Positions 9,196 through 59,208 of a stretch of 64,000 bases of DNA are shown here, in pieces. This DNA comes from a virus. The notes under the pieces are model-generated. The model saw nothing but the letters and a program-made list of their open reading frames with translations, searched no databases and had not been told where the DNA came from. The position numbers were made by a program, and so were the translations under genes. The stretch lies in IMG/VR virus record IMGVR_UViG_3300035670_000110, positions 24,609 to 88,608 of that record. One strand, 5' to 3'. Each line of letters starts with the position of its first letter. The stretch's first letter is position 1.

Positions 9196-10812
9196 TTATC
9201 CTCCTAATTGAGATTCCAATTGTAGCACGCGATTCTTTAGGTCGTCAATACTTTCTTGCTGTTCCTTTACTACCGCTAGCAGAGCAGGAATAATCATTTT
9301 TGAATGATATGATGGAATATCTCCCGAAATAGATGCTATAGGCATAACTTCAGCAATTTGTTCTGCTATGAATCCAAGTTCTGTTCCTCCATCGATCCAA
9401 TCAAATTGGACGGGAGTTAAGTTTAACACATCCTTATAATTAAAATCTATAGATTCTCTACTACCAATTTTATCTTCTGGAATATTTAATGTGTCTAATT
9501 CGATAAGAGGAATAATATTTTCTTTTACCGCAAGAGAAGACGCTACATATCCTATTTTTCCAGTAGAATCTATCTGTAAATCTCTAGCAGATGTTACAGT
9601 GGTATTATATGCATCTGGAAATACTACAGATCCAGTTCCCGCAAAACTATGGATGCTGGCACTTTTTGCCTTCATAAAGCCGTTATTATTTAGCCAGAAT
9701 ACTGAGTCTGATGCATTTGCAAATCCAAACCAAAGTCTTCCCTGACTAAAAGGTAGGGCGGCTAAATACATGGGCGCACCATCTCCTGGATATAACTGTA
9801 TTACTCCGTCATTTCTTAAAATTATCCTATCAGATGGGGCAATTATTGCTGGGGTGCCAAAATAATCTCCAATTTTAAACCCAGCGATTGTTCCAGCACT
9901 GGCGGTAATCACGCCAGTAAATGATCCAGAGGTGGCAGTTATCTGTCCAGTAAATGAACCAAATCCTCCATTAATAAAAGTGCTACTTATACTGCTACTA
10001 TTAAGGTTCGTGCCAAAAATCTCTCCACCAGTAATATATCCACCTACAATTAAGCCACCATAAATATTTCCGGCATAAATATCGACGCTATCTATTGTTC
10101 CACCCTTAATATAACCCCCACCTATATAACCTCCAGAAACACTGGCACCGTATAAATTTCCAACAAATGATCCAGATGTTGCATTAATATTTCCCGTGAA
10201 TGATAAATTTCCAGAAACTGTATCTAAGTTAAAATTATTTAATCCGGCTACCGAATTAATTCCTGATGCAGATAAAATCAAGTATCCATTAGTATTAGAT
10301 GCTGTTAAAGAGCCTCCTAGTGCTAGGTCGCCTAAAATATTGCCAGACGTTGCTTGAATTTCCCCCCGCACAGCAACATTAGAAAATATTGCATTTCCCT
10401 GGCCGCTTAAAAACCATCCAGTATTTCCTATATATTTATCTTCCCAACTTTCATATATAACTGGAAAAAATGATGATGCGCCGAGAACTACAACTTGAGA
10501 TTGACCAATTTCATCTAAATACTCTATTACCGTTGTGCCAATGGCAGACCCAGTAAAAATATCTCCTTCATTCCCCACGGCTACAACGGAATAATAAGTT
10601 TGAGCATCTGTAGACCCAGTAAAAGAAATTTTCATTCCTGGAGTTATTGAAGATGCAGAAATATTATTTAAAACTGATGGAATAACTCCGTCAAAATTAT
10701 AGGATGAAATGTCTGGATTTTTTATTCTGAATGCCCCGTTTGAATCTAAATATCCTGTTAAATTAATAAGAGAGGAGTTACTTTCTTCGGAGCCAAAATT
10801 ATTTGTCGCCAT
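9196..10812 (-). CDS. Tail spike/fibre with C-terminal intramolecular chaperone (peptidase S74-like)
   Basis: GNAIFSNVAVRGEI.ATSG, Gly-rich beta-helix repeats, SS...KENI cleavage motif, LTPVQFDW, GFIAEQI and a terminal coiled coil. Confidence 0.85.
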   Translation of the reverse strand: MATNNFGSEESNSSLINLTGYLDSNGAFRIKNPDISSYNFDGVIPSVLNNISASSITPGMKISFTGSTDAQTYYSVVAVGNEGDIFTGSAIGTTVIEYLDEIGQSQVVVLGASSFFPVIYESWEDKYIGNTGWFLSGQGNAIFSNVAVRGEIQATSGNILGDLALGGSLTASNTNGYLILSASGINSVAGLNNFNLDTVSGNLSFTGNINATSGSFVGNLYGASVSGGYIGGGYIKGGTIDSVDIYAGNIYGGLIVGGYITGGEIFGTNLNSSSISSTFINGGFGSFTGQITATSGSFTGVITASAGTIAGFKIGDYFGTPAIIAPSDRIILRNDGVIQLYPGDGAPMYLAALPFSQGRLWFGFANASDSVFWLNNNGFMKAKSASIHSFAGTGSVVFPDAYNTTVTSARDLQIDSTGKIGYVASSLAVKENIIPLIELDTLNIPEDKIGSRESIDFNYKDVLNLTPVQFDWIDGGTELGFIAEQIAEVMPIASISGDIPSYHSKMIIPALLAVVKEQQESIDDLKNRVLQLESQLGG

Positions 10813-11737
10813 TAAGGGTTGCCCTCCCCCAAATGACTTTTTCGCTTTTATTTATTTGCAACCATTCGCCCCTCCACTTACCATCTCTTAAATAATATCT
10901 TGCTATTGCAACATAAAATAAAAAGTTTGGCTTAGAATCTATATAAAAATTGTTGGTAAATGAAGGTCCATTAGCATATTGTAATAAATTTGTCGAATAG
11001 GCCGGTGGAGTTTTTTCATCGACTATTGTTAAATTTTTATTTCCATTTAACATTAAATATTTTGGAATCTTAGCGGTATTTTCTTTATCATAATTTTTAA
11101 ATGCATAAATTGGAATATCTCTTACGGCTTTAACGGGGGTTCCTGTTACTGGACTTTTTACATTAATTAAATTATCAAACACTTTATCTTTTGATATTTT
11201 AACAGTGAATGAAGATAAAATTCTTTTTGGCTGTACCTCTCTCACAAAAGAATTTTCTGGGTCAACTGAGCCGCTATCTGCACCTAATGCTCTAAAGTTA
11301 GGAACTTCTATATCTAGCACCCAAGTTTTTCCTGTCTGAGATAATCCCGATTGTAAGATTGTATATTCTCTTCCAATCTCAGTACCTTTTAAATTATCTA
11401 ACAAACTGCTAGAAGAAAAAATTCTTACTTTATCTCCCTTTTTTAAATCTTTTCTATCCTTGGCATCTTTTAATAAAATTCTTAATTTATAATATCCAAC
11501 CCTGTTATGAGGCTGTTTAGAAAACTTACTAAACTTAAATTCTCCCCCCACTCCGCCATATTCATCAAAGGGCCTTCCTACAGTTAATTCTATTTCTTCT
11601 TTGCTCATTAATGGGCACGCGGGAGGCACTTTAATCTGAAAACTTTGAGAGACGGCAACCTCCTCATAGGCTTCTCCCTCAATGGCGAATCTTAAATTAT
11701 TATTAGGCCATAAGGTGTTAATGGTTAATTTAGTCAT
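10799..11737 (-). CDS. Putative minor tail protein
   Basis: 312-aa ORF with overlapping stop/start junctions inside the tail operon. Confidence 0.6.
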   Translation of the reverse strand: MTKLTINTLWPNNNLRFAIEGEAYEEVAVSQSFQIKVPPACPLMSKEEIELTVGRPFDEYGGVGGEFKFSKFSKQPHNRVGYYKLRILLKDAKDRKDLKKGDKVRIFSSSSLLDNLKGTEIGREYTILQSGLSQTGKTWVLDIEVPNFRALGADSGSVDPENSFVREVQPKRILSSFTVKISKDKVFDNLINVKSPVTGTPVKAVRDIPIYAFKNYDKENTAKIPKYLMLNGNKNLTIVDEKTPPAYSTNLLQYANGPSFTNNFYIDSKPNFLFYVAIARYYLRDGKWRGEWLQINKSEKVIWGRATLNGDK

Positions 11738-12687
11738 GACACTCCGTAGTTAAATCCTAAAGATAAAGAATATTCTATCGTTAAAGGGATGGACGCTGGC
11801 TTTCTGATAGGAGTCGGCAGGACTGCTCTAGATATTAGGCCATAGTTTGTATCTATAAAATAATTTCCTATATCAATTCTCATTGCATCTAATAATACCG
11901 GCTCCGAAGAATCGTGCCAAATTCTTACAAAATTAATGTCTGACCATTCGGGAAGTCCTGTAACTGTAGCAGCACCCTTTTCTGTGGAAGAAATAAAATA
12001 TCCAGATGCAGCAGGGGTAGTAAAAGCAATGTCATAATAACTATTTTCATCTTTCATAAATCTAAAAAATACATTAGATGAAGCCGTTGATTGATTATAT
12101 CCAGAAAGTATAAAATTATCCTGTGAGGTAAATGTTTCAATATACTGAAAGGCGCCGTCGGTTGACGAATACTGTAAATAATTATTTGCACTTGATGTTG
12201 GAGGTATATTAAATAATTGAGTTCCTATTCTGGCAAACTCTGTACTAATAAGTTCTGCTGCTGATGCTGATCCAAACTTAAGAAATAGGTCAACCCGGTC
12301 AAAGTCGAACAGCAATGATCCATTAAGACCGATCGTAGCATCTGATATTCTAGATGGATAAAGACCTACCTCTCTAATTTCTGATTGAAATGGGTCATCA
12401 ATTACTCCAGAATAAATCAATATATCATTATTATTTTCAAGATTTAAAGTTCCGCCGCGCACAACAGTTCTCCCTGATTCAAACTGCAGAGAGTTATTGG
12501 TAATCAGGGAGGTGGAGGCGGATAATGTATTTGGCTCATTACCTATTCCATAGGCTATACTGTTAGCAAAGTTAGGTATTATTCCAAGCAAAGATTTAAT
12601 AATAATGGAGCGTCCTGCGGTGGTAAGGGCATTCTGCTGCTCATAGATTAATTCATTGTCTAAATAAAATCTATAGATTCCTTTCAC
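11734..12687 (-). CDS. Minor tail/baseplate protein
   Basis: N.LTTAGR..I, GIG, IREVGLY and SRAVL..PI.K....LTIEY motifs typical of tail-collar/baseplate proteins. Confidence 0.7.
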   Translation of the reverse strand: MKGIYRFYLDNELIYEQQNALTTAGRSIIIKSLLGIIPNFANSIAYGIGNEPNTLSASTSLITNNSLQFESGRTVVRGGTLNLENNNDILIYSGVIDDPFQSEIREVGLYPSRISDATIGLNGSLLFDFDRVDLFLKFGSASAAELISTEFARIGTQLFNIPPTSSANNYLQYSSTDGAFQYIETFTSQDNFILSGYNQSTASSNVFFRFMKDENSYYDIAFTTPAASGYFISSTEKGAATVTGLPEWSDINFVRIWHDSSEPVLLDAMRIDIGNYFIDTNYGLISRAVLPTPIRKPASIPLTIEYSLSLGFNYGVS

Positions 12688-18957: not shown

Positions 18958-18960
18958 TAA

Positions 18961-21900
18961 TTATAAACTCCTGCTATGGTTTCTTCTATTATTTGATGAA
19001 TTAATCATACTAGCAACCTTGTTAGCAATTGCTGTAGCACTCTTTCCACTAGCACCATTGATTATAATTTTAACATTTGATTTGCTTCCGCCATAATTAT
19101 TTGATACACCAGAAACATTTGATGGCATAACAGGAACTGAGAATTTCGGATCTTGCATGGATGACATTCCAAAATTACCAGCGTTAATTTGATCTAACAT
19201 TCCTCTACCGTACTTATTTACCGCACCAGCCTTTACCACATACTCTCCATTGGAGAGCATAGCGGGAATCATATCTGATCTTGGACCACCCCTCCCGGCA
19301 ACAAAACCACCGGAAGCATATTTTGCAATAGGAGTACCTGCTCTGTCGAAGAACATTCTGTGCCAAGGACTGCTTAAAGAAGTATATTTAACCGGACTTC
19401 CCGCTTCAATAACCTGATCGTTTCCGGCATATATTGCAATGTGCCTTCCCGATGGAGCCAGCCCAGTATTACTGTAATATAAAAGATCTCCAATTTTTAA
19501 TGATGAAGATGGAATTGGCGGCTGAGAACCGTCTCCAGGCCGTCCGCTAATTCTTCTTGCAACAATTCTAGAACTATTAATTTGACTTTCTGAATAAGAT
19601 AAAAGACCATATTTTTTATAACCATCGGGAACGCCTAAATTATATGACATTGCTGTCAGACCAGAGCAGCCCCAAGAATCTGGACCATTTACATTAACAA
19701 GACTGTAAGGCTCTCCTAGTTGCTGTTTGGCGAATTCTAATGCTAAAACTCCATCTGGATTTGATCCAGAATCTTGTGATGGGGTAGTTGCCCCCCTATA
19801 TCCCAAGAATGCAGGCCATAGATTGTTTGTGTTTGTTTCTGTTGAAACGCCCCACCAAGGTCTTCCATTATACTCACTCCAATCAAATCCGGCACTTGTA
19901 CCGTTATAGTTTTTCAACATCGCCCATGGTAAAAATGTTTGACCTCTATTAGATACATGCTCGTATGCCATTCTAGAGTTATAATTTCCATCCAATAATT
20001 GAGAAATATTAAACCATGGCTGACTTCCATAAGATCTTTTATTAATTTGGAAAAGACCGTAGTCACCATTTCCTTCAGAATACATTGAAGGATTATTAAT
20101 ATGATCAGAATATTTTCCTGGCTGACCGCCAGACTCTCTCATGGCAATGGTCCAGGCTAATCTATGTAAATCTCTTGGCCAGCCGCCAGCATCTAAATAT
20201 GTTAAAACATTTTGAGCGGTTGTTAATGTGTGACCTAATCCTGCTAGAACAGATTCATTAAATATCGGTGTTCCAGTTGCTCCGCCGTCTCCATATGGTG
20301 TGCTAGGTGGACTTCCTGGCTCACCGGAACCTGCTCCATTATTAGGATCTTCTACAGGAGTCTCTCTTAATTGTCTTCCATATACAAATCTTGGATCGGC
20401 CTGACCGACAAGTCCACCTTCAGCAAACCCTGTTGCTTTTTCATTAATTTCAAGCAGCCTCATTTCCGCATTATCCTCAGACAATGAGGTGATTAATCTA
20501 GATAAAGCAAGTGCCGCGCCTGTTCCTCCTAGTACTGTGCCAGTTCCTACAGCGGTTGTATAATATAAGGCCCCAGTTTCTACTTGATCTTCTGTTAGAG
20601 GGGAAAGACCATTCCTCGCTCTATTTGAATTTATCATTGGAACTATGTTATTACGGTATGGATATTGTATAGTTGATGAACCTAAATCTTTACCAATTCT
20701 TAAAAGGCCAGCAGTTTTTTCTCCAATAGAAAGTTGATCTCCCCAATAAAATGGACTATTTTTATTAAAAGCATGTTTTGCTGAATTATATAAAAATGTT
20801 GCTTTAAATGATGGAGTATTTCCATAAGAGTTTCCTGGTACATATCCTTTAAAATATGGTACTACATTATGAGATCCAGGAGACACCCCAATTTTTGAAA
20901 ATAGTATAGACATCGTTCTTATCCGATTTGCTTCGGCGGCGGCCTCAAGAGATCCGTAGGTTCTTTCACTGGAACTTGCTGGCCATTGTTGAGCACCACG
21001 ACTAAAAAGGTTGTTAAAGTCTAGAGCATGACCACCCTCATGTGCGGTAACACCCATAAGTTCAAAAATGTCTCCTGGGGTGGAATTAATTTGTGTTCCG
21101 GTATAAGGGTTATCGACCCCTCCCTGTAACTGATGTCCATTAAAAATTTGATCAACTACGTTATCCCAGGAAGATTTATTTACTACTGTTCCGGGGGCAG
21201 CAGGACCATAAAGTTGTGAAAGCATTGAATCCATTGAGGGATCTTTTCCAAAAATATAACCTTCTTCTGGAACAAAGTTTTTCATGCTCACTAGATTAGA
21301 GTGAGATCCCCAATATATATCTCTTTTAAGATTTTGCGCTTTATTATCATTATAAATAAAGTGGGACAAATATTTTCTATAAGCAGATTGAATTTCTGGA
21401 GAAATATTAAGTCCGACATAATAAGGATTTATTCCTGGTGGCAATTCTTTTTCTGGAAGACTGTTTAAATAATTTATAAGAACTTCACTTTGATCAACCC
21501 CTTCTTGATACTTTGGATCATTTCTATAAAGAAAGGGTTTTTCTGACTTTACTCCTGAAGAATAATTTCTCATGACCCCGGCTGTTTTAAATCTACTGAG
21601 TAGTCCAGATATTCCTTTAGGGATTGGAATAGGAGCAAAACTAGCAGCAAATAAAGCAGCGTCTAAAGCAGCACGATCTGCGTAATCTCTTTCATATTCT
21701 TCCTGGGTAACTCCCATTACCCAGGATGGAAGGGAGAACTGGGCGCTGGTGTTTGATCTAATTCCATATGGGGTTGGCCTAGTAGATGCTAATGTTCTTA
21801 CTCCCCCCAGACCTAATAAAGATAGAGTTGCTGAAAATCCTTGTCTAAGCCCATTCCACATCTCTCCAAGAATGCTTTCTGCAACAGGGTCTGGCCTAAC

Positions 21901-43844: not shown

Positions 43845-43846
43845 AA

Positions 43847-44383
43847 TTATTTTATCTCACAATCTAAAAAGAACATGTGGTTTGGCTCAGCAAAGTGCAT
43901 GAATAACATTAAGACTTCATTGCCTTCGGTAAATTCTGGTCTTGAATGAAATTGATCTTCTCCGTAAAAACATAACGCCTGATTATTTTTAAGAATATAT
44001 TCTTTACCCTCTACAATAATCGGCCAAGGTTCTTTTGAAGACAAACAAATGTCAAAGGTATAGGTGCAGGCGTTTTGATCTTTATGATTTTCTAACCTAG
44101 AATTATATTGATTGTAATATGCTAAAAGAGAATATGTATGTAGAAGAGTGTCACTATCAAACTCTTTCCTAGCCCGATCCATATTCAGTAAGCCGATTCT
44201 ATCGCAACAATCATTTTCATTAACATATCTATTATGAAGTGGCTCAAAGTTCCAAAGATTTTTAGGAATAGAGTTTGCTATAGACATTATTTTAGAATAT
44301 TCTTTATCATTAAAGAACTTATCTATTATCCATGGATCTTTTATCTTTGCCAACGATTCACCGCCCAGGGAGGGCCAAACCAA
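43847..44383 (-). CDS. 2OG-Fe(II) oxygenase
   Basis: LENHKD (HxD), WPI, ALCFYGEDQFHSR (distal His), LFMHF. The true start may be slightly downstream of 44383. Confidence 0.8.
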   Translation of the reverse strand: MVWPSLGGESLAKIKDPWIIDKFFNDKEYSKIMSIANSIPKNLWNFEPLHNRYVNENDCCDRIGLLNMDRARKEFDSDTLLHTYSLLAYYNQYNSRLENHKDQNACTYTFDICLSSKEPWPIIVEGKEYILKNNQALCFYGEDQFHSRPEFTEGNEVLMLFMHFAEPNHMFFLDCEIK

Positions 44384-45012: not shown

Positions 45013-45020
45013 TTTTTATC

Positions 45021-48551: not shown

Positions 48552-48886
48552 TAAGAAACCTCTACTCCTGAAATATGAATATTTAAGGATGCTGAAGCAC
48601 TTGCGAACCCATGAATAGAAGATCCTGTTGGAAGAACACTTTTAATTTCAATGCTAAGAGTGTTATTTGCTGATACTAATATTTCCGGGAAAATTTTATT
48701 TGAATTTGAGGGTGATCCTGCATTTGGAACAAAATATAATGTAGCATCTAAATCTGCTCCAGTTGTATTTGAAATTAATATTTGCTTTATTATAGATGTT
48801 GTGGAGGCAGGAACGACATATAATGCACTTGCTGTACCTGGAAGATCCCTGGCAGCAACCAGTTCCTTTAAATCAAAAACGGACAT
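48551..48886 (-). CDS. Small virion beta-sandwich protein
   Basis: LYVVPASTTSIIKQILISN...NIHISGVEV pattern common in phage fibre clusters; GGAGGAGG SD. Confidence 0.68.
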   Translation of the reverse strand: MSVFDLKELVAARDLPGTASALYVVPASTTSIIKQILISNTTGADLDATLYFVPNAGSPSNSNKIFPEILVSANNTLSIEIKSVLPTGSSIHGFASASASLNIHISGVEVS

Positions 48887-48926: not shown

Positions 48927-50756
48927 TTAGTAAATTCCCATATGGGTTGCTACCATAAGATTATTAAAATCTTGATTACTTGCATATAAAGATGATGCTG
49001 TGCTTTCTGTTAAGAAACTAGGGGCATCAGTTATTCCGGTCCAATTTATTGATGATGCTGTCTGAGCGTGATTAGCCGTATTATTAATACCTAAATAAAT
49101 ATTTGATGCGTCTGTTTTACTTAAATATATTACTGACGCTGTTTCTGCTGATTGAAAATATTCTGCTTTATATCCATCAAGGAATTCTGCATTTAAATTT
49201 ATTGACTTTGCGCTTGATGATACTTCAATATTATTAACTACTAAAGTTGCAAAAGTAACACTAGGAGAACTAAAATCAAAAATATCGTTTATTGGATGAT
49301 CTGCATTTGCTAATAATTTCCACTTTTTATCCAAATGATCTCTAATTAATCCGGTATGACTATGTTGACCCGCTGCAGATGATGAATTGATATCTCCATA
49401 TGGTGCAATGAATCCTATATCTAAAATATCAGAAGTGTACTGACTTCGACCAAGATATATAACTGGATCATTAACTTCTAATGATGTTGTATTAAGATAT
49501 ACTGTTGATCCAGTAACAAATAGATCATGAGCAAAAAGTACTCCATGTATGTTTAAATTTCCTTCTTTTATTTGAGTAGCAGAAGAAGTGTTTATAAAAT
49601 ATGATGCATGAAATGAATCTAATGTATCTGCATCTATTCCTGACCCTTCTCCGTCAACTTCTTGAATCGCGGCGGCTAAACCTTGATTAGTCCAATAAGA
49701 TGATGATTGACTGTAAGTAATAATATCGTTGTCGGATAATGTTGTGAATTCAACATTGGAGTCTGTTCCGCCCAAAACTGATCCATTATCCATACGAACA
49801 TAAATTCTCCCTGTATTTGCTTCTTGTCTTAAAACAATTGCGAGAGATGTTTTAATTGCTGGAGACGTTGGTTTTGTACTTGTCCACCCACCAGGATTTA
49901 TTGGGTCTGGGTAAAGGATTGTTCCGATAGCATAACTGGCGGTATTAACGTCACGAACAATTCCATCGGTGGTTACCAGACCATATTCTGATCCATCAGG
50001 AATATCTTGGGTGGCTACACCAATAATATATTCTGGACCCACCGTTCCATTTGTTACTGCCTTAGCAATAGTTACTCTATCTCCAATAACCCCTGTAGCC
50101 ATAACAATAGAGCCATGAGGAATTAATACACCAGAATTATTTTTTACAGGAGCAAAGTAAGACTCCATGCCAATAGATTGAACAACACTTCCAGACATTC
50201 CAAGATCTAGAGTTCCTTCTTCAACATTCCACTCTAATTGTCCTGGCTCTAAAAATCCTGGCTCTAATGAGGTATTAAAGTCTATTCTTGTAATATCAAA
50301 TGACTGTTCACCGTCGCGCATAACAATTGCGGAGGCGGTATTGTTCCAAGTAGCATTAGTTGATATGGTTAATTTATCAGCAGAGGCGGTAGCATTAAGA
50401 ATGATTCCATTCTCCGCCGCAAAAGTTAATTCATCGGTAATTAAATCTGCTATAACATCTTCCGTTGGCGGAAGGGTTTTAATAGTGCCAAAATTGTTTA
50501 CACTTGATGATATTCTAAAATATGCTGAGGCTGCTGATTCTTCTGTTAAAAAGTTTCCAGATGGACTAGTACCAGTATTACCATCACCGACTAAATTCCA
50601 TTCTGAACCATTCCAAGCATAAAGGCTAGATGCACTAATCCATAGTTGTCCTATAAACGGATTAGATGGGGATGAAGAGGTATAATTAACAAGATTTGTA
50701 GGACCGCCAACTTGAAGGCCGTTCTTTACCTTAAAATCTTTATCTTGTGTCGCCAA
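48927..50756 (-). CDS. Tail fibre / decoration fibre protein
   Basis: MATQDKDFKVKNG N-terminus, GSGIDADTLD and LNAEFLDG fibre repeats, GNL...G.L.VTG..VYLNT..LEVNDP motif. Confidence 0.75.
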   Translation of the reverse strand: MATQDKDFKVKNGLQVGGPTNLVNYTSSSPSNPFIGQLWISASSLYAWNGSEWNLVGDGNTGTSPSGNFLTEESAASAYFRISSSVNNFGTIKTLPPTEDVIADLITDELTFAAENGIILNATASADKLTISTNATWNNTASAIVMRDGEQSFDITRIDFNTSLEPGFLEPGQLEWNVEEGTLDLGMSGSVVQSIGMESYFAPVKNNSGVLIPHGSIVMATGVIGDRVTIAKAVTNGTVGPEYIIGVATQDIPDGSEYGLVTTDGIVRDVNTASYAIGTILYPDPINPGGWTSTKPTSPAIKTSLAIVLRQEANTGRIYVRMDNGSVLGGTDSNVEFTTLSDNDIITYSQSSSYWTNQGLAAAIQEVDGEGSGIDADTLDSFHASYFINTSSATQIKEGNLNIHGVLFAHDLFVTGSTVYLNTTSLEVNDPVIYLGRSQYTSDILDIGFIAPYGDINSSSAAGQHSHTGLIRDHLDKKWKLLANADHPINDIFDFSSPSVTFATLVVNNIEVSSSAKSINLNAEFLDGYKAEYFQSAETASVIYLSKTDASNIYLGINNTANHAQTASSINWTGITDAPSFLTESTASSLYASNQDFNNLMVATHMGIY

Positions 50757-50784: not shown

Positions 50785-52458
50785 TTAAGAGTCTATCAGT
50801 GTTCTTACCGCCTTGATATCAACATTTGTTGTGGCAGCATCAGGAGATTCCGCTTTAAAGAATAATCCACCGCTGAACGCTGAAGCGGTCAAAATTATGT
50901 TTGCGGCACCATTGGCACTATCTACAATAGCATATTCAGTTATATATGCATTAGTTCCATCCCAAGAGACAAGGACCTTTGAAGAAGTCATTTTAGTACC
51001 TTGTTTTGCTTGTAAAAGATATTCTGCAGTAGTGAATGAGGATACACTGAATGAATCTATGGTTGTTGGAGTATCGTTTGCAGTTACTGTAACAGTAGAA
51101 GTTGTAATTGTAGCATGTGCAAAATCTACACCAGCAAATGTTGGTGTAGATGTGGTTCCTATGCTTTGTGGAAGGCTAAGAACAACTGATGCTGTCTCTC
51201 CACCAGAACCTGCAACAAGAACCTGATCGGCAGTTCCATAAATTCCAGCAACATAGTCTCCAGTGGTATCTGTTCCAAGAGCAATGGAGTCGGCAGCAAT
51301 AGTAAGAGTAATACTTGCACTGTCTAGATTGCTTACTGTTCCTGTTCCTGTGACATCGCCAGTGAATACTAAGTTAAAGTCTTTTTCTACTGTAACTGTA
51401 ATGCTTGCGGAGCCAAGATCTGTTAATGTTGCTCCACCAGAAACATCACCGATTAAAGTAATTGTTGGGTCTGGAATATTAAGAATATTTGACCAGTCTA
51501 CATTGGCATCAATCTCTCCTTTAGTACCGGAAAATACTTCAGCGGAGTTGGTAGCATCTGGAATAAATGTAAATTTTCCGGTGGAGTCATCGAAACCAAA
51601 GAAACCTAATTTAGCAGTTCCGTCGTTCCATTTAAATTCAATACCTCTATCTTTACCGTCATCAATTCCGTCTGTGTCTCCTCCCAATGTAAAGATTGGG
51701 TCGTCGATGGTAACGACTGTGCTATTAATAATGACAGAAGATCCTGTCACAATAAGATTTTCTCCTACTGTAAGGCTCCCTGCAATAGTGACATTATCCG
51801 GTAGGCCAACCTGAATATTTCCGGTAGATGCTGACACTGTAACTTCATTATCAGTTCCAATAACAGACTGTACTCCAGACATTCCAATTAGTTGCTCTAC
51901 TGTATATCCATTTAAATATTGCGAATTAAGGTTATTAACTAAAGCAGAACTTCCTACAGTAAATATATCTGTAATATATAATGCGCCAAAAGTTGGGCTA
52001 GCGCCAGAAGAAATATCTTGAATAGTAGAAATTGTTGGACTAGCACTTTCTCCCGATGTATGGCTAATGACAATGCTATTTCCAGGCTGGATTGACTCTA
52101 CATAATCCCCAAAAGTTTCTACTCCCAAGGTTACTGCATCTAAAGCAACTCCAGCATCCTGAATAACTATTGTTCCATTTTGTAAATCTGTAAATGTTGC
52201 AGAGCCTGTTCCAACAAGGCCGCCAGATAGTTCTACAGTGATGGTGAGGTCTGGCTTATTTGTAGTATTTGACCAATCTAATAGATAAGAAGAGTCTAGA
52301 CCATCAACATAGTCAGCGCTTAAATTAGTGACATTGGCGGAAGAGGTTACTACCAATGGAGGGTTTGATGAAGTAGTGGATATTAGTTGAGTACCTTGTA
52401 CCTCTTCTCCAGCAACTATTCCATTTCTAACAACAAAGTCTTTATTTACAGTAGCCAT
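50785..52458 (-). CDS. Tail fibre protein
   Basis: MATVNKDFVVRNG N-terminus, NLSADYVDG, DDGKDRGIEF, GDVTG repeats, IALGTDTTGDYVA, C-terminal IDSF...TAEY..Q domain. Confidence 0.78.
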   Translation of the reverse strand: MATVNKDFVVRNGIVAGEEVQGTQLISTTSSNPPLVVTSSANVTNLSADYVDGLDSSYLLDWSNTTNKPDLTITVELSGGLVGTGSATFTDLQNGTIVIQDAGVALDAVTLGVETFGDYVESIQPGNSIVISHTSGESASPTISTIQDISSGASPTFGALYITDIFTVGSSALVNNLNSQYLNGYTVEQLIGMSGVQSVIGTDNEVTVSASTGNIQVGLPDNVTIAGSLTVGENLIVTGSSVIINSTVVTIDDPIFTLGGDTDGIDDGKDRGIEFKWNDGTAKLGFFGFDDSTGKFTFIPDATNSAEVFSGTKGEIDANVDWSNILNIPDPTITLIGDVSGGATLTDLGSASITVTVEKDFNLVFTGDVTGTGTVSNLDSASITLTIAADSIALGTDTTGDYVAGIYGTADQVLVAGSGGETASVVLSLPQSIGTTSTPTFAGVDFAHATITTSTVTVTANDTPTTIDSFSVSSFTTAEYLLQAKQGTKMTSSKVLVSWDGTNAYITEYAIVDSANGAANIILTASAFSGGLFFKAESPDAATTNVDIKAVRTLIDS

Positions 52459-52991: not shown

Positions 52992-55900
52992 TTAAGGAAG
53001 ATAATAAAAATCTATTCCTTTGGATAAATTAAAAGATTCATTCAGCCAACTATTAACAAGCAGTACCGTTTGATCATCATGGCTATTGCTAAATAAAACA
53101 ATGGAAGAAATATCTCCATTTAATGATCCTTGAGAACTTTTCCCTAAAATAATACTTTCTATATTTGATTGATTAGATATATTTTCATACAATTTAACAT
53201 TGTTCATATATATAGAACTTGAACCGGAAGAGGCAGTTATGGTATAAATATGAAAACTATTATCATAATTTGATACTGATGCAGAAGTTTCTGCCTGTGC
53301 ATATATATATCCTCCATCAGAATATATGGAAACTGATGCGGACTCAAATATGCCGCCGTCGTTAAATATTCTTCCAACAATATATAATGTATATGGCTGA
53401 TTTGATGAAGCGGAGGATTCCATGAACTGCGTTCCATTAAATTTAACTACTGGCATATCATAATCAGTGGAAAGTGGGAAGACCCAGGACGATGTAATAA
53501 CTGATCCTGTAGAAGGATAAAGACCTAGATTGTCCCAGTAAACAAAGTCATTAATATCATATGAGCCATTATAAAATCTTATTTCTGCGGATATTGCTGA
53601 AGAAGATGTTGTAAATTCTGTGTATAAATCATATATTCCTGTTAAATTATCTGATGCATTTGATGATGCAGAGAATATTAATCCCGATCCCTCATCTACA
53701 TAAACAGATATTGTTCTTGATAAATTATGTAAAAATGAAGCAGATTGAGGTTTAGATAACTTTAAACTCCCGACAACAGAATATTTCTGATTAGGATAAA
53801 TAGAAATAGAGGCAGTGTTATTCATATAAATATATGAATCTATTGATGTTCCATCAGGAATTACCTTTAGGCCTTTTTGTCCAGAAACAGCACCATCTGA
53901 AGAAGATTCTACTGATGAATTAACTGAAATAATATTGGATACGCTTCCAGACTCACCCCCGGCTAACTGTTCATTGGTAAATACATTTTTAGATTGAAGT
54001 CTAAATATTGGAGCAGATGCTGAATCATTCTGAATCGCATGAAATTCATTTCCAGATAAATCATTCCATCGGTTAACATGTGAATCATCTTCCGACTTTA
54101 TTTTATTTAATCCATTAGTAAATCTAGAATCTAGCCATAATATAAGGTTGTTTAAAGATCTTGGGTCTAATGGCTTTGCTGCAAAATCGTCCGTAAATTC
54201 AGATATCGAATTTAACATTTTTATTCCAGAATTTTTTGTCATAAATATGTTAGGGGTTTTCCTTATTTCTGGAAGAAATACATACGATGATGAATTATAC
54301 AATAAATAGTTGTTTCCGTCGTCATGTCTCAGCGAGACTTTATCCGCATCGCCGGAATATGTCTCAAAAGTGAAATATTTAATCCTTGGTGGCAAATAGT
54401 TAGCATCCTCTGAATACATTTCAAAGTCAAAGGTTAGGTATGTTCCAGAAAGATTGTTATTATTTATAAATGGAAATGTGTCATTTTTGTAAAATCTAGT
54501 TTTTGGATATATAACGCTTCCGCTGTAATCGTAGTGGGTCACATAAAAAAGAACTTGCGAAGATGATAAAATATCTGGGTAGCCAACGCTAACAGTATTT
54601 GCAGAAAGTTTTTGATCATCATCATTATTAAATTTACCAATATCAATAGCGTGGAGATTAAAGGTTAAATTACCATAAGTTTGAGTTTTGAATCTTTTTT
54701 GATTGCTATCATATGTGATTTTATATCTATATTTTTTATATGACTCTAAATCTTGAAACGTAGAATAAGAAGCGGAAAAGTCATCTTGAAGAACAGAAAA
54801 TGATTTGAATGTTCCAGAAAATTGATTTACTGACGGTAGATTGGTTGAATAATTATCTTGATCATAAGAAATATTGCTTCCGATCCTAATTATTTTTTGA
54901 TAATCTAATGGGAAATAGTAACTAAGAGGATCTAGTCCATAAAGATTTTCATCGTAGAAAGCAAAAGAAGATGTTTGAACAAAACTTCCTGTTTGAGCAA
55001 AATAAAAGTATGAGTTGTCTAAAAACTTCATACCAATATATGCCTCTGGATTGCTCTCAATATCTACAATATTAAAATCAACAGCATTTCCATTTATTGT
55101 TTCTATTAAAATTTTATATGAGCCAGATTGATTATATAAATTAAATTTTAGTATCTCTTCACTGGGTTCGGAGCCAATGGACATTATCGTTTGCTTTTCA
55201 AAAACCTTGGGTAAATTTCCATCAAATTTTACTTTTACAAAAAATGGATATTGTCCTGAAAGTATTTTTTGATATAAACTTCTTATATCTATATATGCCG
55301 CATTAACAGTAGATCCGCTGCTCGTAATAAAAGATATTTGATTTGATGAAGTCTGAATGTCATTGTTATAAGAATAAAATATTGGTTCATCATAATTTAA
55401 AGGAGATATGCCAGATTGAGTCATTATTAAATCTTTTACTTCCGCCTGACGCCATTCCTGTGGATATCTCCAGTCAATTTTAAATATTTTTTCCGTATCT
55501 ATTGTGGAAAAATTATATAGTGTCCCGCCTCGGGCATGAAATACATCATCCCCAATAGATTTACCCAAACCATATACATAATGTCTTTTAGCATCGAAAG
55601 TGCTTAGGATATTTGAATATAAAGCGACACTATCTATTATCCAATTTTCTGACGGAGGTCCGTAAAAATCTATGTAATCATTTTCTAAATGACTAGGGTC
55701 TAATTCCAAATTAATATAATTATTTTCATTATTTTTAAAAGAATTTCCATTTATCATCAATACCATTGACGATGGATTTTTCCCAATTAATATATGATTA
55801 GGTTCTTCTGGATTTTCAATGTCTCCACGAACTTCCATATAACTTGCACTTGTTCCATATCTAAAAATTAAATAATTATTTTTAATAAATAATCCTACAT

Positions 55901-56249
55901 TATCAGATCCTCTTTTTTTAAAAATGGGATATTCTTCAGAGGACAGGAACTCTGTTTGAAACCAAAATGTCATACAAGAGTTTTTATTTTTATATAGTTC
56001 TGAAAATTGTCCTATTGCTGGCACAGACATGCCAACTGAAGAGGATATGAATCTAAGAGCAGACCCTCCTCCAAAAACTATAGGAGTTTCTGTAACATCA
56101 GTATTATTTATAAAAATGGAGGCACTATTAGAGTAAGCACTATTATTATAAAAATTTATAGCCTTAGACATTGAAGAACTTTGGGTAATATCATCCAGCG
56201 GCCAAACAATATCAGCAGAGTCTTGCAAGATTATCTTGCTGTATGACAT
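52992..56249 (-). CDS. Large virion protein with ConA/LamG-like and carbohydrate-binding-like domains
   Basis: MSYS.IILQD....WPLDD LamG-type start, IDSVALY, LILWLDS...WNDLSGN..HA.Q, YWDNL, LNGDISSIVLF. Confidence 0.75.
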   Translation of the reverse strand: MSYSKIILQDSADIVWPLDDITQSSSMSKAINFYNNSAYSNSASIFINNTDVTETPIVFGGGSALRFISSSVGMSVPAIGQFSELYKNKNSCMTFWFQTEFLSSEEYPIFKKRGSDNVGLFIKNNYLIFRYGTSASYMEVRGDIENPEEPNHILIGKNPSSMVLMINGNSFKNNENNYINLELDPSHLENDYIDFYGPPSENWIIDSVALYSNILSTFDAKRHYVYGLGKSIGDDVFHARGGTLYNFSTIDTEKIFKIDWRYPQEWRQAEVKDLIMTQSGISPLNYDEPIFYSYNNDIQTSSNQISFITSSGSTVNAAYIDIRSLYQKILSGQYPFFVKVKFDGNLPKVFEKQTIMSIGSEPSEEILKFNLYNQSGSYKILIETINGNAVDFNIVDIESNPEAYIGMKFLDNSYFYFAQTGSFVQTSSFAFYDENLYGLDPLSYYFPLDYQKIIRIGSNISYDQDNYSTNLPSVNQFSGTFKSFSVLQDDFSASYSTFQDLESYKKYRYKITYDSNQKRFKTQTYGNLTFNLHAIDIGKFNNDDDQKLSANTVSVGYPDILSSSQVLFYVTHYDYSGSVIYPKTRFYKNDTFPFINNNNLSGTYLTFDFEMYSEDANYLPPRIKYFTFETYSGDADKVSLRHDDGNNYLLYNSSSYVFLPEIRKTPNIFMTKNSGIKMLNSISEFTDDFAAKPLDPRSLNNLILWLDSRFTNGLNKIKSEDDSHVNRWNDLSGNEFHAIQNDSASAPIFRLQSKNVFTNEQLAGGESGSVSNIISVNSSVESSSDGAVSGQKGLKVIPDGTSIDSYIYMNNTASISIYPNQKYSVVGSLKLSKPQSASFLHNLSRTISVYVDEGSGLIFSASSNASDNLTGIYDLYTEFTTSSSAISAEIRFYNGSYDINDFVYWDNLGLYPSTGSVITSSWVFPLSTDYDMPVVKFNGTQFMESSASSNQPYTLYIVGRIFNDGGIFESASVSIYSDGGYIYAQAETSASVSNYDNSFHIYTITASSGSSSIYMNNVKLYENISNQSNIESIILGKSSQGSLNGDISSIVLFSNSHDDQTVLLVNSWLNESFNLSKGIDFYYLP

Positions 56250-56259
56250 TTACACTCCC

Positions 56260-58311: not shown

Positions 58312-58524
58312 ATGATCACAATACAAGAACTTCATTTATATAAAAAGATGAGTGATAAAAAATTACTTCCGAGTCTTGTTTGTCCTGTAGATGAACTTCA
58401 TAAAGAAATTTATCCATGGGTAGATGAAAATGAAAAAGTTTGCCTATGGTGTGTTTTTTGTAATTCTAAAGTATATTTAGGTTTAGAAAGAGAAAAGTAT
58501 ATTAAAGAGTTACTTCGTCGGTAA
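58312..58524 (+). CDS. Small Zn-binding protein
   Basis: CPVDELH...CVFC; leaderless start 6 nt after TGATATTAT; divergent from nrdJ. Confidence 0.7.
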   Translation: MITIQELHLYKKMSDKKLLPSLVCPVDELHKEIYPWVDENEKVCLWCVFCNSKVYLGLEREKYIKELLRR

Positions 58525-58843
58525 CAAAAATATTTCCGGTCATCAGAGTGGTCACAACAGACGATGAATTTTCCATTTGAACATCGTAGACCCAGTTTTT
58601 ATTTGCAGCAAGAAGAGATGAATTCTCAGAACTCAGAGTGAACAAAACTTTTCCTGAAGATGCTGAAAGTATTTCTGTATCAAAACTTGACACTGGAGAT
58701 GATGAACCCTTCTGCTTAATTGATCCTGAGAATACTGTTCCCCCTGGGATACTAAATGCACTACCACTTGTCTGTAAAGTAAGGGAAAATCTTAAAGTAT
58801 CTCCCTTATATAATTCAAAAGAGTTATATGCTGGCATAGTCAT
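58502..58843 (-). CDS. BppU-N-like virion protein
   Basis: LYKGDT, GKVLFTLS, WVYDVQM, TLMTGNIFVTDEVT. Confidence 0.72.
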   Translation of the reverse strand: MTMPAYNSFELYKGDTLRFSLTLQTSGSAFSIPGGTVFSGSIKQKGSSSPVSSFDTEILSASSGKVLFTLSSENSSLLAANKNWVYDVQMENSSSVVTTLMTGNIFVTDEVTL

Positions 58844-59208
58844 CGCTGTACAACCACCTTATATCCTGAAAGATCTATTGCTGCTTTAATTGTAACATTA
58901 TTAGAATCTATTATCTCTACATCTGAAAATACTAATTGATTGCCTGGATTATAAAGGAACACTATAGGATTTTCATAATTTAAAGAATGTGTAAATGTAT
59001 GAAAATATATTCCAGCAGAGGATGTTCCAGAGGAAAGAGTCCCATATGAAGTTAAGTTAACATTACCTGTAAGACTATTTACTGAAAAAACACTTTGAGC
59101 AGCATCTCCCACAGATACAATAATGTTATCTATTTCGTTAATATATTGAATATCGATATCTGTTATCTGATTATCATATTCAATAATTATATTGTCTACT
59201 TCGGACAT
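58840..59208 (-). CDS. Small virion protein
   Basis: VFSVNSLTGNVNL fibre repeat and HTFTHSLNY.NP.V module. Confidence 0.65.
   Translation of the reverse strand: MSEVDNIIIEYDNQITDIDIQYINEIDNIIVSVGDAAQSVFSVNSLTGNVNLTSYGTLSSGTSSAGIYFHTFTHSLNYENPIVFLYNPGNQLVFSDVEIIDSNNVTIKAAIDLSGYKVVVQR

What the first reader, a model, noticed from the sequence alone, without database searches (positions are those of the whole stretch)
9196..59208. [S/T]-[A/G]-S tripeptide is common in surface virion proteins but rare in internal ones: a candidate glycosylation sequon
Approximate hand counts of SAS/TAS/SGS/TGS: ~18 in the 1085-aa protein, 9 in the 609-aa fibre, 8 in the 557-aa fibre, 6 in the 282-aa protein, 4 in the 221-aa protein and 3 in the MCP, with further copies in the tail tube, adaptor, terminator, spike and BppU-like protein. 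In contrast there are ~3 in the 3092-aa tape measure, 0 in the portal, 0 in NrdJ and about 1 each in DnaB, primase and ThyX. These proteins are not homologous, so the motif appears to have been acquired convergently. Inference: it is a recognition sequon for a phage GT60 (Ser/Thr O-GlcNAc) or another modifier, selected on the exposed virion surface.
Basis: partly seen in the sequence, partly recalled or inferred. Interest (0 to 1): 0.85.

Follow-up and report, generated by a model that had tools for sequence, protein, structure and literature searches.

The report
Ser/Thr-Ala-Ser tag on phage surface proteins
The outward-facing particle proteins of this uncultured long-tailed phage carry the ordered tripeptide Ser/Thr-Ala-Ser about five times more often than chance, and the excess follows one conserved phage sugar-transferase gene rather than the GT60 genes first suspected, so it is probably a sugar-attachment tag, although no chemistry has shown this.

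Summary
All hand counts are exact. The excess survives whole-protein shuffles and 10-residue block shuffles: 50 [ST]AS in 13 virion proteins against 10.4 ± 3.1. In an unbiased scan of all 8000 tripeptides, SAS ranks 2 and TAS ranks 3.

The motif is ordered and specific: [ST]-A-S. S-G-S is weaker, T-G-S is not enriched, and no other residue is tolerated at any of the three positions. Outer virion proteins are 4.8-5.5x enriched, internal ones 0-0.5x, and non-virion proteins about 1x.

The excess is restricted to certain lineages:
- Clades A, B and D of this phage family have it. Clade C, with homologous proteins, does not.
- Motif positions turn over while the density is kept.

The GT60 reading fails:
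- Two clade C genomes carry GT60, one of them the orthologous cassette, and show no excess.
- A complete clade B genome without GT60 has TAS at rank 1.

One gene fits the pattern: a 384-aa GT-B glycosyltransferase lying 13.2-14.4 kb before the window. It is the only one of 97 ORFs found in all five other enriched genomes compared (G006, G007, G008, G014, G019) and in none of the four unenriched genomes.

No modification has been demonstrated. The scan has noted the same tripeptide on other phages before.

The parts
52992..56249 (-). 1085-aa virion-associated protein, the richest carrier. It has 18 [ST][AG]S, of which 11 are [ST]AS.
   Evidence: 18 vs 3.0 expected, p <= 0.001. Block shuffle gives 11 vs 2.0. 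AlphaFold2 model: 13 of 18 motifs in coil, 3 at strand edges, 2 in strands. Motifs at 134, 375, 420 and 576 sit in tight beta-hairpin turns. Only 4 of 18 alignment columns are shared with a 38%-identical orthologue that has 21 motifs.
50785..52458 (-). 557-aa fibre or structural protein with 8 motifs.
   Evidence: 8 vs 2.8, p = 0.011. PHROG 697 structural protein and PHROG 967 fibre connector.
48927..50756 (-). 609-aa tail-fibre-like protein with 9 motifs.
   Evidence: 9 vs 2.4, p = 0.001. Weak tail-fibre PHROG hit.
48551..48886 (-). 111-aa protein with 4 motifs.
   Evidence: 4 vs 0.67, p = 0.005.
46190..46855 (-). 221-aa Gly/Ser-rich protein with 4 [ST]AS.
   Evidence: [ST]AS 4 vs 0.58 under 10-aa block shuffle. 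Its orthologue in the unenriched GT60-positive genome G002 has 0.
37772..38620 (-). 282-aa protein next to the portal, with the highest motif density (6). Two beta-rich domains; the N-terminal one is a lectin-like jelly roll.
   Evidence: 6 vs 0.77, p = 0.001. 32 orthologues carry 3-10 motifs spread over 33 different alignment columns, none universal. AlphaFold2 pLDDT 74.5. Weak fold matches to ConA/LamG-like carbohydrate-binding domains.
32478..33596 (-). Major capsid protein, with TAS174, TAS210 and SGS226 in a variable Ala/Thr-rich segment.
   Evidence: 3 vs 0.67. Clades A and B have 2.0-2.1 [ST]AS per MCP; clade C has 0.21. The alignment shows the sites lie in the segment that differs between clades. 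42% identical to Streptomyces phage capsid proteins.
31473..32378 (-). 301-aa head-tail adaptor-like protein with 2 motifs.
   Evidence: 2 vs 0.38. PHROG 442 head-tail adaptor. Clade A mean 2.36 vs 0.31 expected.
29000..29776 (-). 258-aa tail tube protein, with motifs inside an insertion loop that most clade C homologues lack.
Evidence: 2 vs 0.73. Alignment.
11734..12687 (-). 317-aa tail protein with 3 motifs.
   Evidence: 3 vs 0.97. PHROG 9983 tail protein. Orthologues: 8/0.77 in G014 and 6/0.97 in G019.
9196..10812 (-). 538-aa fibre-like protein with 10 motifs.
   Evidence: 10 vs 2.4, p = 0.001. Orthologues: 16/1.36 in G007 and 22/4.2 in G014.
58502..58843 (-). 113-aa protein with 3 motifs.
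   Evidence: 3 vs 0.75. PHROG 1084, and a weak hit to tail-fibre assembly.
39371..40534 (-). GT60-family glycosyltransferase (PF11397) in the low-GC island. It does not track the motif.
   Evidence: Pfam E = 2e-18. Phyletic mismatch with the motif.
42615..43844 (-). Second GT60-family glycosyltransferase.
   Evidence: Pfam E = 6e-15.
60918..61862 (+). Third GT60-family glycosyltransferase.
   Evidence: PF11397 match, E = 2e-24, in the search of the window's own genome.
44341..45012 (-). P4H-like 2OG-Fe(II) oxygenase in the same island.
   Evidence: PF13640, E = 6e-12.
18961..28239 (-). 3092-aa tape measure protein, an internal control with no excess.
   Evidence: 3 vs 6.6. Six internal virion proteins together: 2 vs 4.3 [ST]AS.
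35860..37485 (-). Portal protein, an internal control with 0 motifs.
   Evidence: 0 vs 0.46. 1 [ST]AS in 61 orthologues.

Best explanation
[ST]-A-S, with S-G-S as a weaker variant, is a short linear motif kept at high density by selection on solvent-exposed loops, hairpin turns, linkers and extensions of the outer virion proteins: fibres, tail tip, tube, adaptor, capsid and the 282-aa lectin-like protein. This holds in clades A, B and D of this phage family.

The most likely reader is a phage-encoded soluble GT-B glycosyltransferase of 384 aa (here called GT384). It lies at G000:10237-11391, that is 13.2-14.4 kb before the window start, and would O-glycosylate one of the motif's hydroxyl residues in the host cytoplasm before or during assembly.

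The variable low-GC island next to the portal would then elaborate or diversify the coat rather than choose the sites. That island holds GT60 and P4H genes here, and sulfotransferase, methyltransferase, GT1 or halogenase genes in relatives. The GDP-6-deoxyhexose genes would also serve elaboration.

Shown: the statistics, the positional specificity, the restriction to outer virion proteins, the lineage restriction, the positional turnover, and the co-occurrence with GT384. Inferred: that the motif is modified at all, that the modification is a glycan, which residue carries it, and that GT384 is the enzyme.
For: Statistics:.

Specificity, each shown in G000, in G006+G007+G008 and in the clade B loci:
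- In xAS only x = S or T is enriched (41/13.5 and 24/8.7 in G000).
- In [ST]xS only A is enriched; G is also enriched, for SxS only, in clade B.
- In [ST]Ax only S is enriched.

Compartment: outer virion [ST]AS is 54/10.1, 62/12.2, 57/11.8, 51/9.3 and 78/16.1 in G000, G008, G006, G007 and G014. Internal virion proteins give 2/4.3, 2/5.2, 1/4.9, 2/4.1 and 0/3.5. Non-virion proteins give 0.6-1.9x.

Lineage:
- The four clade C genomes total 28/27.7, 31/27.0, 32/30.5 and 25/29.7.
- Clade C orthologues of the 1085-aa protein have 0-2 motifs in 15 of 17 sequences, against 1-13 in 14 clade B sequences, fragments included.
- At the same hairpin-turn columns clade C uses N-G, G-D or charged residues.

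Turnover.

Reader:
- Of 97 G000 ORFs, only GT384 has a BLAST hit in all of G006, G007, G008, G014 and G019 and in none of G001-G004.
- The PHROG 7162 HMM finds it in G014 and not in G001-G004.
- In G001 and G003 the genes that flank it in G000 are adjacent or fused, so the absence there is real.
- G019 is more distant than clade C (portal 51-53%, MCP 39% identity). It carries a 49%-identical GT384 and shows SAS 22/8.6, TAS 18/5.4 and SGS 25/9.0 in its structural block, against 2/4.6, 0/3.0 and 3/4.4 in the rest.
- GT384 matches PHROG 7162 'glycosyltransferase' at E = 5e-31.

Against: - No chemical evidence of any modification exists.
- The GT384 correlation rests on few evolutionary events. 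Clades A and B are sisters, clade D adds one event and the loss in clade C adds one.
- Only G014 is complete. The other genomes are 66-90% complete.
- G010, a clade-C-like phage with intermediate enrichment (outer proteins 27/10.6), shows no GT384, but its contig ends just where the gene would lie.
- GT384 scores below Pfam's cut-off for Glyco_trans_1_4 (24.5 vs 27 bits). It has no NCBIfam hit and no solved relative by sequence. Its donor and acceptor are unknown.
- The nearest cultured homologue is in Arthrobacter phage Atuin (30% identity). That phage shows no excess in 22 proteins examined: SAS 15/11.5, TAS 9/12.8.
- In the confidently modelled part of the 1085-aa protein, 4 motifs form tight beta-hairpin turns, which a purely structural reading also predicts.
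- Solvent exposure could not be computed, because the tool returns no coordinates.
- Hosts are unknown, so a difference in host between clades cannot be excluded.
Confidence: 0.45

Rival explanations
1. The motif is a real modification or recognition tag, but it is read by something other than GT384. Candidates are a host enzyme (for example a general O-glycosylation or O-mannosylation system of the unknown, possibly actinobacterial, host), another phage enzyme, or a host receptor or defence factor. Clade C would lack the motif because it infects a different host.
For: - The lineage restriction and turnover require a reader but do not identify it.
- Hosts are unknown.
- The GT384 correlation rests on few events.
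- G010 is moderately enriched with no GT384 seen on its 54%-complete contig.
- Weak hints of an actinobacterial host: MCP 42% identical to Streptomyces phage capsids, a DUF732 domain, and atlas neighbours.
Against: GT384 is the only ORF whose presence matches the enrichment in all nine other genomes compared, including the distant clade D. Virion proteins are made and assembled in the cytoplasm, which favours a soluble enzyme over periplasmic or extracellular host systems. That last point is an inference.
Confidence: 0.2
2. There is no modification. [ST]-[AG]-S is a lineage-specific structural habit: small residues favoured at exposed beta-hairpin turns and loops of beta-rich virion proteins. 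It would spread by drift, recombination between fibre modules, or selection for solubility or flexibility.
For: - In the AlphaFold2 model of the 1085-aa protein, motifs at 134, 375, 420 and 576 sit in 3-4-residue turns between two strands. 13 of 18 motifs are in coil.
- Residues after the motif are depleted in charge, 0.22-0.52x at +1 to +4, and rich in hydrophobic residues, as at the start of a strand.
- About ten columns of the 282-aa protein are semi-conserved.
Against: - Homologous proteins of clade C fill the same turn columns with N-G, G-D or charged residues and show no excess genome-wide, so the folds do not require the motif.
- Strict order and identity at all three positions is not expected of a turn preference. 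SAT, GAS, NAS and DAS are at expectation, and Ala is preferred over Gly.
- The motif also fills low-confidence linkers (residues 141 and 158 of the 282-aa protein), a tail-tube insertion and a C-terminal capsid extension carrying three TAS in G019.
- The motif's coil share, 13 of 18, is close to that of all Ser, 106 of 158. It is therefore not tied to one structural element.
Confidence: 0.2
3. One reading: the tripeptide is the sequon of the phage's GT60 (PF11397) Ser/Thr O-GlcNAc transferases.
For: Three PF11397 genes are present. Two lie in an island between the fibre genes and the motif-rich 282-aa protein. Enriched genomes G000 and G008 carry GT60.
Against: - G002 and G004 carry GT60 and are not enriched. 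G002's orthologues of the cassette-linked 221-, 568- and 111-aa proteins have 0 [ST]AS.
- G014, which is complete, has no PF11397 hit and the strongest signal: TAS 46/12.4, rank 1.
- G006, G007 and G019 are enriched with no hit.
- The 282-aa orthologues keep 6-9 [ST]AS whichever island type sits beside them.
Confidence: 0.05
4. The excess is an artefact of Ser/Ala/Thr-rich composition, of low-complexity segments, or of choosing the motif after looking at the data.
For: Some sites lie in Ala/Ser/Thr-rich variable loops of the tube and capsid. The motif was chosen by eye.
Against: - 10-aa block shuffles give 10.4 ± 3.1 against 50 observed, and the highest of 2000 shuffles is 22.
- In blind scans of all 8000 tripeptides, SAS and TAS rank 2 and 3 in the window, 1 and 2 in G008, and TAS ranks 1 in G014.
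- Composition-matched permutations such as SAT and TAT are not enriched; of those tested only ASS is (26/10.4, rank 4; other positions).
Confidence: 0.02

Closest known systems
Virion glycosylation of mycobacteriophages by phage-encoded glycosyltransferases (Freeman et al. 2023, Cell Host Microbe; PMC10527164). The paper is not held. I saw it only through a citing passage in PMC12619734.
   Same: Tailed phages, probably of actinobacterial lineage, that encode their own glycosyltransferases. The capsid and tail tube are among the candidate targets. A surface sugar coat is the proposed outcome.
   Different: According to the citing passage, the glycans there sit at the C-termini of the capsid and tail-tube subunits. 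Here the candidate sites are an internal tripeptide scattered over at least 12 virion proteins, and no glycan has been shown. Two sequence observations bear on this. Che8's capsid protein ends in T-G-S and its major tail protein in D-G-S. The G019 capsid has a C-terminal extension with three TAS. My searches found no printed sequon for phage virions.
[quoted passage not shown]
   Same: Serines in an S-A-S context are the glycosylated residues. The targets are surface proteins.
   Different: There it is one contiguous low-complexity stretch per protein, and the review suggests glycosylation happens extracellularly. Here the tripeptides are isolated in ordinary sequence, in many proteins, and the presumed enzyme is soluble and phage-encoded.
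[quoted passage not shown]
   Same: A three-residue O-glycosylation sequon in which Ser/Thr is followed by a small methyl-bearing residue. It marks hundreds of exposed proteins.
   Different: That sequon requires Asp before the Ser/Thr. Here charged residues are depleted at -1 (0.67x) and the commonest residues there are S, V, N and L. Here Ser is required at the third position.
GT60 family (Pfam PF11397 'GlcNAc'): polypeptide Ser/Thr or hydroxyproline alpha-GlcNAc transferases of Dictyostelium and trypanosomes. The family description is recalled, not taken from a call.
   Same: Three family members are encoded here beside a P4H-like oxygenase. A Pro/Thr-rich tail-protein arm (12684-14255) would be a conventional kind of substrate for such a pair.
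   Different: Their presence or absence does not follow the [ST]AS excess.

Membership tests
Phage virion O-glycosylation by phage-encoded glycosyltransferases (mycobacteriophage type) | The phage genome encodes glycosyltransferases. | tested here: met
   GT384 matches PHROG 7162 at E = 5e-31. Three PF11397 genes. Gmd, an epimerase and a DegT-family enzyme.
Phage virion O-glycosylation by phage-encoded glycosyltransferases (mycobacteriophage type) | Glycans are demonstrably attached to virion proteins (mass spectrometry or glycan staining). | not testable with these tools
   This is an uncultured metagenomic phage, and I have no proteomic data.
Phage virion O-glycosylation by phage-encoded glycosyltransferases (mycobacteriophage type) | The sites lie at the C-termini of the capsid and tail-tube subunits (as stated in the citing passage). 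| tested here: not met
   In the window's capsid and tube proteins the motifs are internal, at residues 174, 210 and 226 and at 132 and 153. Only the distant relative G019 has a C-terminal capsid extension with three TAS.
GT60 (PF11397) sequon | A PF11397 catalytic domain is present. | tested here: met
   three genes above the curated cut-off.
GT60 (PF11397) sequon | The motif excess co-occurs with the enzyme across relatives. | tested here: not met
   GT60 present without excess: G002, G004. Excess without a PF11397 hit: G014 (complete), G006, G007, G019.
GT384 (PHROG 7162-like GT-B) sequon, the proposal made here | The motif excess co-occurs with the enzyme across relatives. | tested here: met
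   Present in 6 of 6 enriched genomes (G000, G006, G007, G008, G014, G019) and in 0 of 4 unenriched genomes (G001-G004). G010 is uninformative because its contig ends at the locus.
GT384 (PHROG 7162-like GT-B) sequon, the proposal made here | The enzyme transfers a sugar to Ser/Thr of [ST]AS peptides. | not testable with these tools
   This needs an enzyme assay or co-expression followed by mass spectrometry.
Serine-rich-repeat / S-layer S-A-S O-glycosylation of Firmicutes | The acceptor is a contiguous low-complexity run of S-A-S-type repeats. | tested here: not met
   The sites are isolated tripeptides in ordinary sequence. 10-aa block shuffles do not reproduce the counts.
Serine-rich-repeat / S-layer S-A-S O-glycosylation of Firmicutes | A GT4-type (GT-B) priming transferase, for SRR proteins paired with a GtfB-like partner. 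This feature is recalled, not taken from a call. | tested here: inconclusive
   GT384 gives a sub-threshold Glyco_trans_1_4 match, 24.5 vs 27 bits. Its 215-aa neighbour looks lysozyme- or transglycosylase-like in the protein atlas, not GT-like.
Bacteroidota D-(S/T)-(A/I/L/M/T/V) sequon | Asp immediately before the glycosylated Ser/Thr. | tested here: not met
   At -1, charged residues are at 0.67x and the top residues are S, V, N and L, in 255 non-redundant sites.

The most novel reading that the evidence does not exclude
A family of freshwater long-tailed phages coats its virion exterior by O-glycosylation at a defined three-residue sequon, [ST]-A-S. A conserved, phage-specific GT-B transferase primes the sites. 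Swappable islands of tailoring enzymes (GT60/P4H, sulfotransferase, methyltransferase, GT1, flavin halogenases, GDP-deoxyhexose synthesis) then diversify the coat between close relatives. The sequon is gained and lost at exposed loops much as N-glycan sequons are on the envelope proteins of animal viruses. If the same tripeptide noted by this scan on unrelated T4-like and SPbeta-like phages (AI notes) has the same meaning, this would be a general sequon for phage virion glycosylation.
Probability: 0.3. Interest if true: 0.9.

Novelty: new variant of a known kind. Interest (0 to 1): 0.72.

Why it matters
Virion glycosylation by phage-encoded enzymes is known from a few mycobacteriophages. My searches found no printed sequence rule for where sugars go on phage particles. 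Those searches were 'virion glycosylation' + bacteriophage + glycosyltransferase, GT60 + phage, mycobacteriophage glycosylation terms, and O-glycosylation + sequon + Ser-Ala-Ser.

A three-residue tag that can be read from sequence, paired with a candidate enzyme, would do three things:
- Make virion glycosylation predictable from metagenomes.
- Show which surfaces of uncultured phages are exposed.
- Provide a compact acceptor-enzyme pair to test for glyco-engineering of phage particles.

The hypothesis can be tested directly by co-expressing two genes and running one mass-spectrometry experiment.

The comparative result also corrects an attractive but wrong assignment. The GT60/P4H island does not choose these sites. 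Its conventional substrate may instead be the Pro/Thr-rich arm of the 523-aa tail protein.

Tried and rejected
DNA-level motif: rejected. The codons used at the sites are diverse.

Local low-complexity explanation: rejected by block shuffles.

Near relatives among cultured phages: none found by megablast.

Solved homologues of the capsid protein, the tube protein or GT384 by sequence: none.

Fold search of the 282-aa model: only weak matches (TM about 0.3) to generic lectin-like jelly rolls. I use this only as 'lectin-like fold'.

Arthrobacter phage Atuin, which has the closest cultured GT384 homologue at 30% identity: no [ST]AS excess in 22 proteins from its first 100 kb. At this distance the result is uninformative, and I did not examine the other 94 kb.

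GT384 in five clade B or C-like fragments (G009-G013, 18-54% complete): no hit, uninformative.

G020 and G021, which have GT384 homologues on 35% and 29% complete contigs: they hold no virion genes, and [ST]AS is 6/7.4 and 1/5.8. This fits the picture of non-virion proteins at expectation but does not test the link.

The 215-aa neighbour of GT384 as a partner subunit: the atlas suggests a lysozyme- or transglycosylase-like protein, so I dropped the idea.

Solvent accessibility: could not be computed, because structure prediction returns no coordinates. I used secondary structure and pLDDT instead.

Rows dropped:
- In one search, orthologues shorter than the stated length cut-offs and exact duplicates were left out.
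- In one search, duplicates were left out.
- ORF sets are longest ORFs of at least 70-100 aa, with overlapping shorter ORFs removed, so small genes are missing.

The Poisson p-values treat sites as independent. Pooled counts over orthologues are not phylogenetically independent.

Full report
WHAT THE WINDOW IS. The window is bases 24609-88608 of an 88.6-kb single-contig virus record, CheckV 72% complete. GC content is about 36% and nearly all genes are on the minus strand.

It encodes replication genes: the DNA polymerase III alpha subunit, primase, DnaB, ThyX and NrdJ. It also encodes a siphovirus-type structural module with a 3092-aa tape measure. The capsid protein is 42% identical to those of large Streptomyces phages. 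Megablast against the cultured-phage collection found no match.

THE OBSERVATION. Every hand count of [ST][AG]S is exact: 18, 9, 8, 6, 4 and 3 in the 1085-, 609-, 557-, 282- and 221-aa proteins and the capsid. The tape measure has 3, the portal and NrdJ have 0, and primase, DnaB and ThyX have 1 each.
- Composition-preserving shuffles give p <= 0.001 for four proteins.
- Shuffling within blocks of only 10 residues, which keeps local composition, gives 10.4 ± 3.1 [ST]AS over 13 virion proteins against 50 observed.
- To guard against choosing the motif after seeing the data, I scanned all 8000 tripeptides against per-protein composition. PPP is first, and it comes almost entirely from one poly-proline tail protein (23 of 27 PPP). 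SAS is second (36 vs 10.4, p = 4e-10), TAS third and ASS fourth. SGS is 1.8x. TGS, SAT and TAT are not enriched.
- The codons are diverse.

Substituting each position in turn shows that only S or T is tolerated at the first position. Only A is tolerated at the second, with G as well, for SxS, in clade B and in G019's structural block. Only S is tolerated at the third. Flanking positions have no strong residue preference. Charged residues are depleted for four positions after the motif (0.22-0.52x) and Pro is 2.1x at -2, in 255 non-redundant sites.

WHERE IT SITS. I sorted ORFs into outer virion, internal virion (tape measure, chaperones, portal, protease-scaffold and a 108-aa protein) and the rest. 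The sorting is my own, based on PHROG labels and gene position.
- [ST]AS is 54/10.1 in outer proteins, 2/4.3 in internal ones and 9/7.7 in the rest. Four relatives give the same picture.
- In the AlphaFold2 model of the 282-aa protein (pLDDT 74.5), one motif is in a strand, three are in loops and two are in a low-confidence linker.
- In the model of the 1085-aa protein (pLDDT 67.5), 13 of 18 motifs are in coil, 3 at strand edges and 2 in strands. Four motifs in the well-modelled part form tight beta-hairpin turns.
- In the tube and capsid proteins the motifs lie in segments that are inserted or divergent relative to clade C homologues.

This fits exposure but does not prove it, because no coordinates were available.

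RELATIVES AS A NATURAL EXPERIMENT. A portal-based scan of IMG/VR returned 80 of 150 related loci. Gene order and portal identity define three groups:
- Clade A, portal 82% identity or more: a variable low-GC island lies between the fibre genes and the 282-aa gene.
- Clade B, 71-76%: no island at that site.
- Clade C, 62-69%: no 282-aa gene.

Orthologues of the 1085-aa protein carry 1-13 [ST]AS in the 14 clade B sequences, fragments included. They carry 0-2 in 15 of 17 clade-C-range sequences. The exceptions are L064 (12/2.2) and L060 (6/2.8). Capsid proteins have 2.0-2.1 motifs in clades A and B and 0.21 in clade C.

Whole-record scans give these counts:

| Record | Clade | SAS | TAS |
|---|---|---|---|
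| G000 | A | 41/13.5 | 24/8.7 |
| G008 | A | 51/18.0 (rank 1) | 34/13.7 (rank 2) |
| G006 | A | 41/16.9 | 34/13.6 |
| G007 | A | 31/13.2 | 31/10.9 |
| G014 | B, complete, terminal repeats | 37/18.1 (rank 5) | 46/12.4 (rank 1) |

The four clade C records have [ST]AS totals of 28/27.7, 31/27.0, 32/30.5 and 25/29.7.

At the hairpin-turn columns where this phage has SAS, SGS or TGS, clade C homologues have N-G, G-D or charged residues. The folds therefore do not demand the motif.

TURNOVER. The window's 1085-aa protein has 18 motifs and a 38%-identical clade B orthologue has 21. They share only 4 motif columns. In 33 orthologues of the 282-aa protein the motifs occupy 33 different columns. About ten columns are occupied in 10-26 sequences and none is universal. 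Density is therefore maintained while positions change. That is how sequons and other short linear motifs behave, not position-locked structural residues.

PF11397 is found three times in G000, and also in G008, G002 and G004.
- G002 carries the orthologous cassette, including orthologues of the 221-, 568- and 111-aa proteins. Those orthologues have 0 [ST]AS and the genome shows no excess.
- G014 is complete, has no PF11397 hit and gives the strongest signal.
- G006, G007 and G019 have no hit and are enriched, though they are 66-76% complete.
- The 282-aa orthologues keep 6-9 [ST]AS whichever island sits beside them.

A BETTER CANDIDATE. I asked which G000 ORFs occur in every enriched genome and in no unenriched one. 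With G006, G007, G008 and G014 as the enriched set, six ORFs had hits in at least three of the four, G014 included: a 384-aa glycosyltransferase, a SpoU-like methylase, two tail proteins, the 282-aa protein and a 122-aa protein. Four further ORFs, with hits in only two or three of the four, also passed that filter.

The glycosyltransferase (GT384, G000:10237-11391) matches PHROG 7162 at E = 5e-31. It gives a sub-threshold Glyco_trans_1_4 match. In clade C its flanking genes are adjacent or fused, so the gene is truly absent there. The PHROG HMM finds nothing in G001-G004.

A database search found more distant homologues. One, 49% identical, lies in an 82-kb record, G019. G019's portal (51-53%) and capsid (39%) are more distant from the window than clade C's are.
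- Its structural block shows SAS 22/8.6, TAS 18/5.4 and SGS 25/9.0. The rest of the genome shows 2/4.6, 0/3.0 and 3/4.4.
- Its capsid motifs are at new positions, including three TAS in a C-terminal extension.

With G019 added, GT384 is the only one of 97 ORFs that fits the pattern.

This is correlation over few evolutionary events and mostly incomplete genomes, not proof. G010 is intermediate in enrichment and uninformative on GT384. Atuin, with a 30%-identical homologue, shows no excess.

CONTEXT. The phage also encodes Gmd, an epimerase/reductase and a DegT-family enzyme, plus a carbamoyltransferase. The island locus in relatives holds a sulfotransferase, a methyltransferase and a GT1 enzyme (L034), or one or two tryptophan-halogenase homologues with P4H-like oxygenases (L014, L021). 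I read these as tailoring functions layered on a conserved priming step. That is inference.

WHAT IS KNOWN.
- Mycobacteriophage virion glycosylation (Freeman 2023) could not be read. A citing passage places the glycans at the C-termini of the capsid and tail tube. In Che8 those termini read ...KTGS and ...SDGS.
- My four searches turned up no printed phage-virion sequon and nothing relevant on GT60 in phages.

EARLIER NOTES OF THIS SCAN. The same tripeptide, [S/T]-[G/A]-S, has been noted on many other phage genomes, mostly marine T4-like. In one freshwater actinophage, [S/T]-A-S was reported to track a phage glycosyltransferase family. These are unchecked AI notes on other DNA. I reached GT384 from my own comparisons before seeing that note. 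I did not test whether the enzymes are related.

VERDICT. The GT60 assignment is contradicted. A conserved GT-B transferase outside the window is the best candidate reader. No modification has been shown.

Noticed in passing
window 38638-46185; L034:4137-8468; L014:3478-8364; L021:5236-8097: The same locus, between the fibre genes and the 282-aa gene, is a swappable island of tailoring enzymes. Here it holds two GT60 genes and a P4H-like oxygenase. In L034 it holds a sulfotransferase (PF13469), a methyltransferase and a GT1-family transferase. In L014 it holds two tryptophan-halogenase homologues (PF04820, E = 3e-85 and 1e-101) and in L021 one, each with a P4H-like gene.
   Followed up: partly
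window 12684-14255: A 523-aa tail protein has a Pro/Thr-rich arm (TPPPPKTPPPT..., SPPPSTTTPPPT) and a run of 16 prolines. It accounts for 23 of the 27 PPP that make PPP the top tripeptide. This is a more conventional candidate substrate for the P4H-like oxygenase and the GT60 enzymes than [ST]AS.
   Followed up: partly
L176 (Mycobacterium phage Che8) 5051-5872 and 7613-8422: In Che8, reported to have a glycosylated virion, the capsid protein ends in ...FNKTGS and the major tail protein in ...QYSDGS. Both C-termini, where a citing passage places the glycans, end in G-S.
   Followed up: no
G019:7031-8287 (locus L182): The capsid protein of the distant relative has a roughly 60-residue Gly/Ala/Ser/Thr-rich C-terminal extension with three TAS, and a SAS in an inserted loop. 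The window's capsid has neither.
   Followed up: partly
L017:1391-4612 and L034:38-4120: Clade A genomes G006 and G007 show about 30 occurrences each of tripeptides such as GLW, LWI, WIA, AYG, YGN, NFG and RTS (WIA 34 vs 1.9 expected), which points to a tandem-repeat protein. I suspect the large protein (1074 and 1361 aa) at these coordinates but did not locate the repeats. Function unknown.
   Followed up: no
clade B loci (e.g. L035-L054): TQS (34/12.7) and TAQ (30/11.5) are also over-represented in clade B proteins. In clade B, SGS is as enriched as SAS (123/37.6).
   Followed up: no
G004 (loci L130-L134): This clade C genome carries GT60 and has no [ST]AS excess, but TTT is 77 vs 20.8 and SGS is 29 vs 13.0. 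Thr tracts are a classical mucin-type target and might be what GT60 acts on there.
   Followed up: no
window 37772-38620: The N-terminal domain of the 282-aa protein models as a lectin-like (ConA/LamG-type) jelly roll, with weak fold matches to carbohydrate-binding domains. The gene is present in clades A and B and absent from clade C.
   Followed up: partly
G000:14197-14592 (L135); window 32478-33596: Hints of an actinobacterial host: a DUF732 domain, a capsid protein closest to Streptomyces phages, GT384 closest to Arthrobacter and Streptomyces phage genes, and atlas neighbours from Actinomycetota. The host was not determined.
   Followed up: no
G003:31202-31948 (locus L126): The 160-aa and 126-aa genes that flank GT384 and its neighbours in G000 both hit a single 248-aa ORF in clade C genome G003, as if the intervening 5 kb were an insertion or a deletion.
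   Followed up: partly
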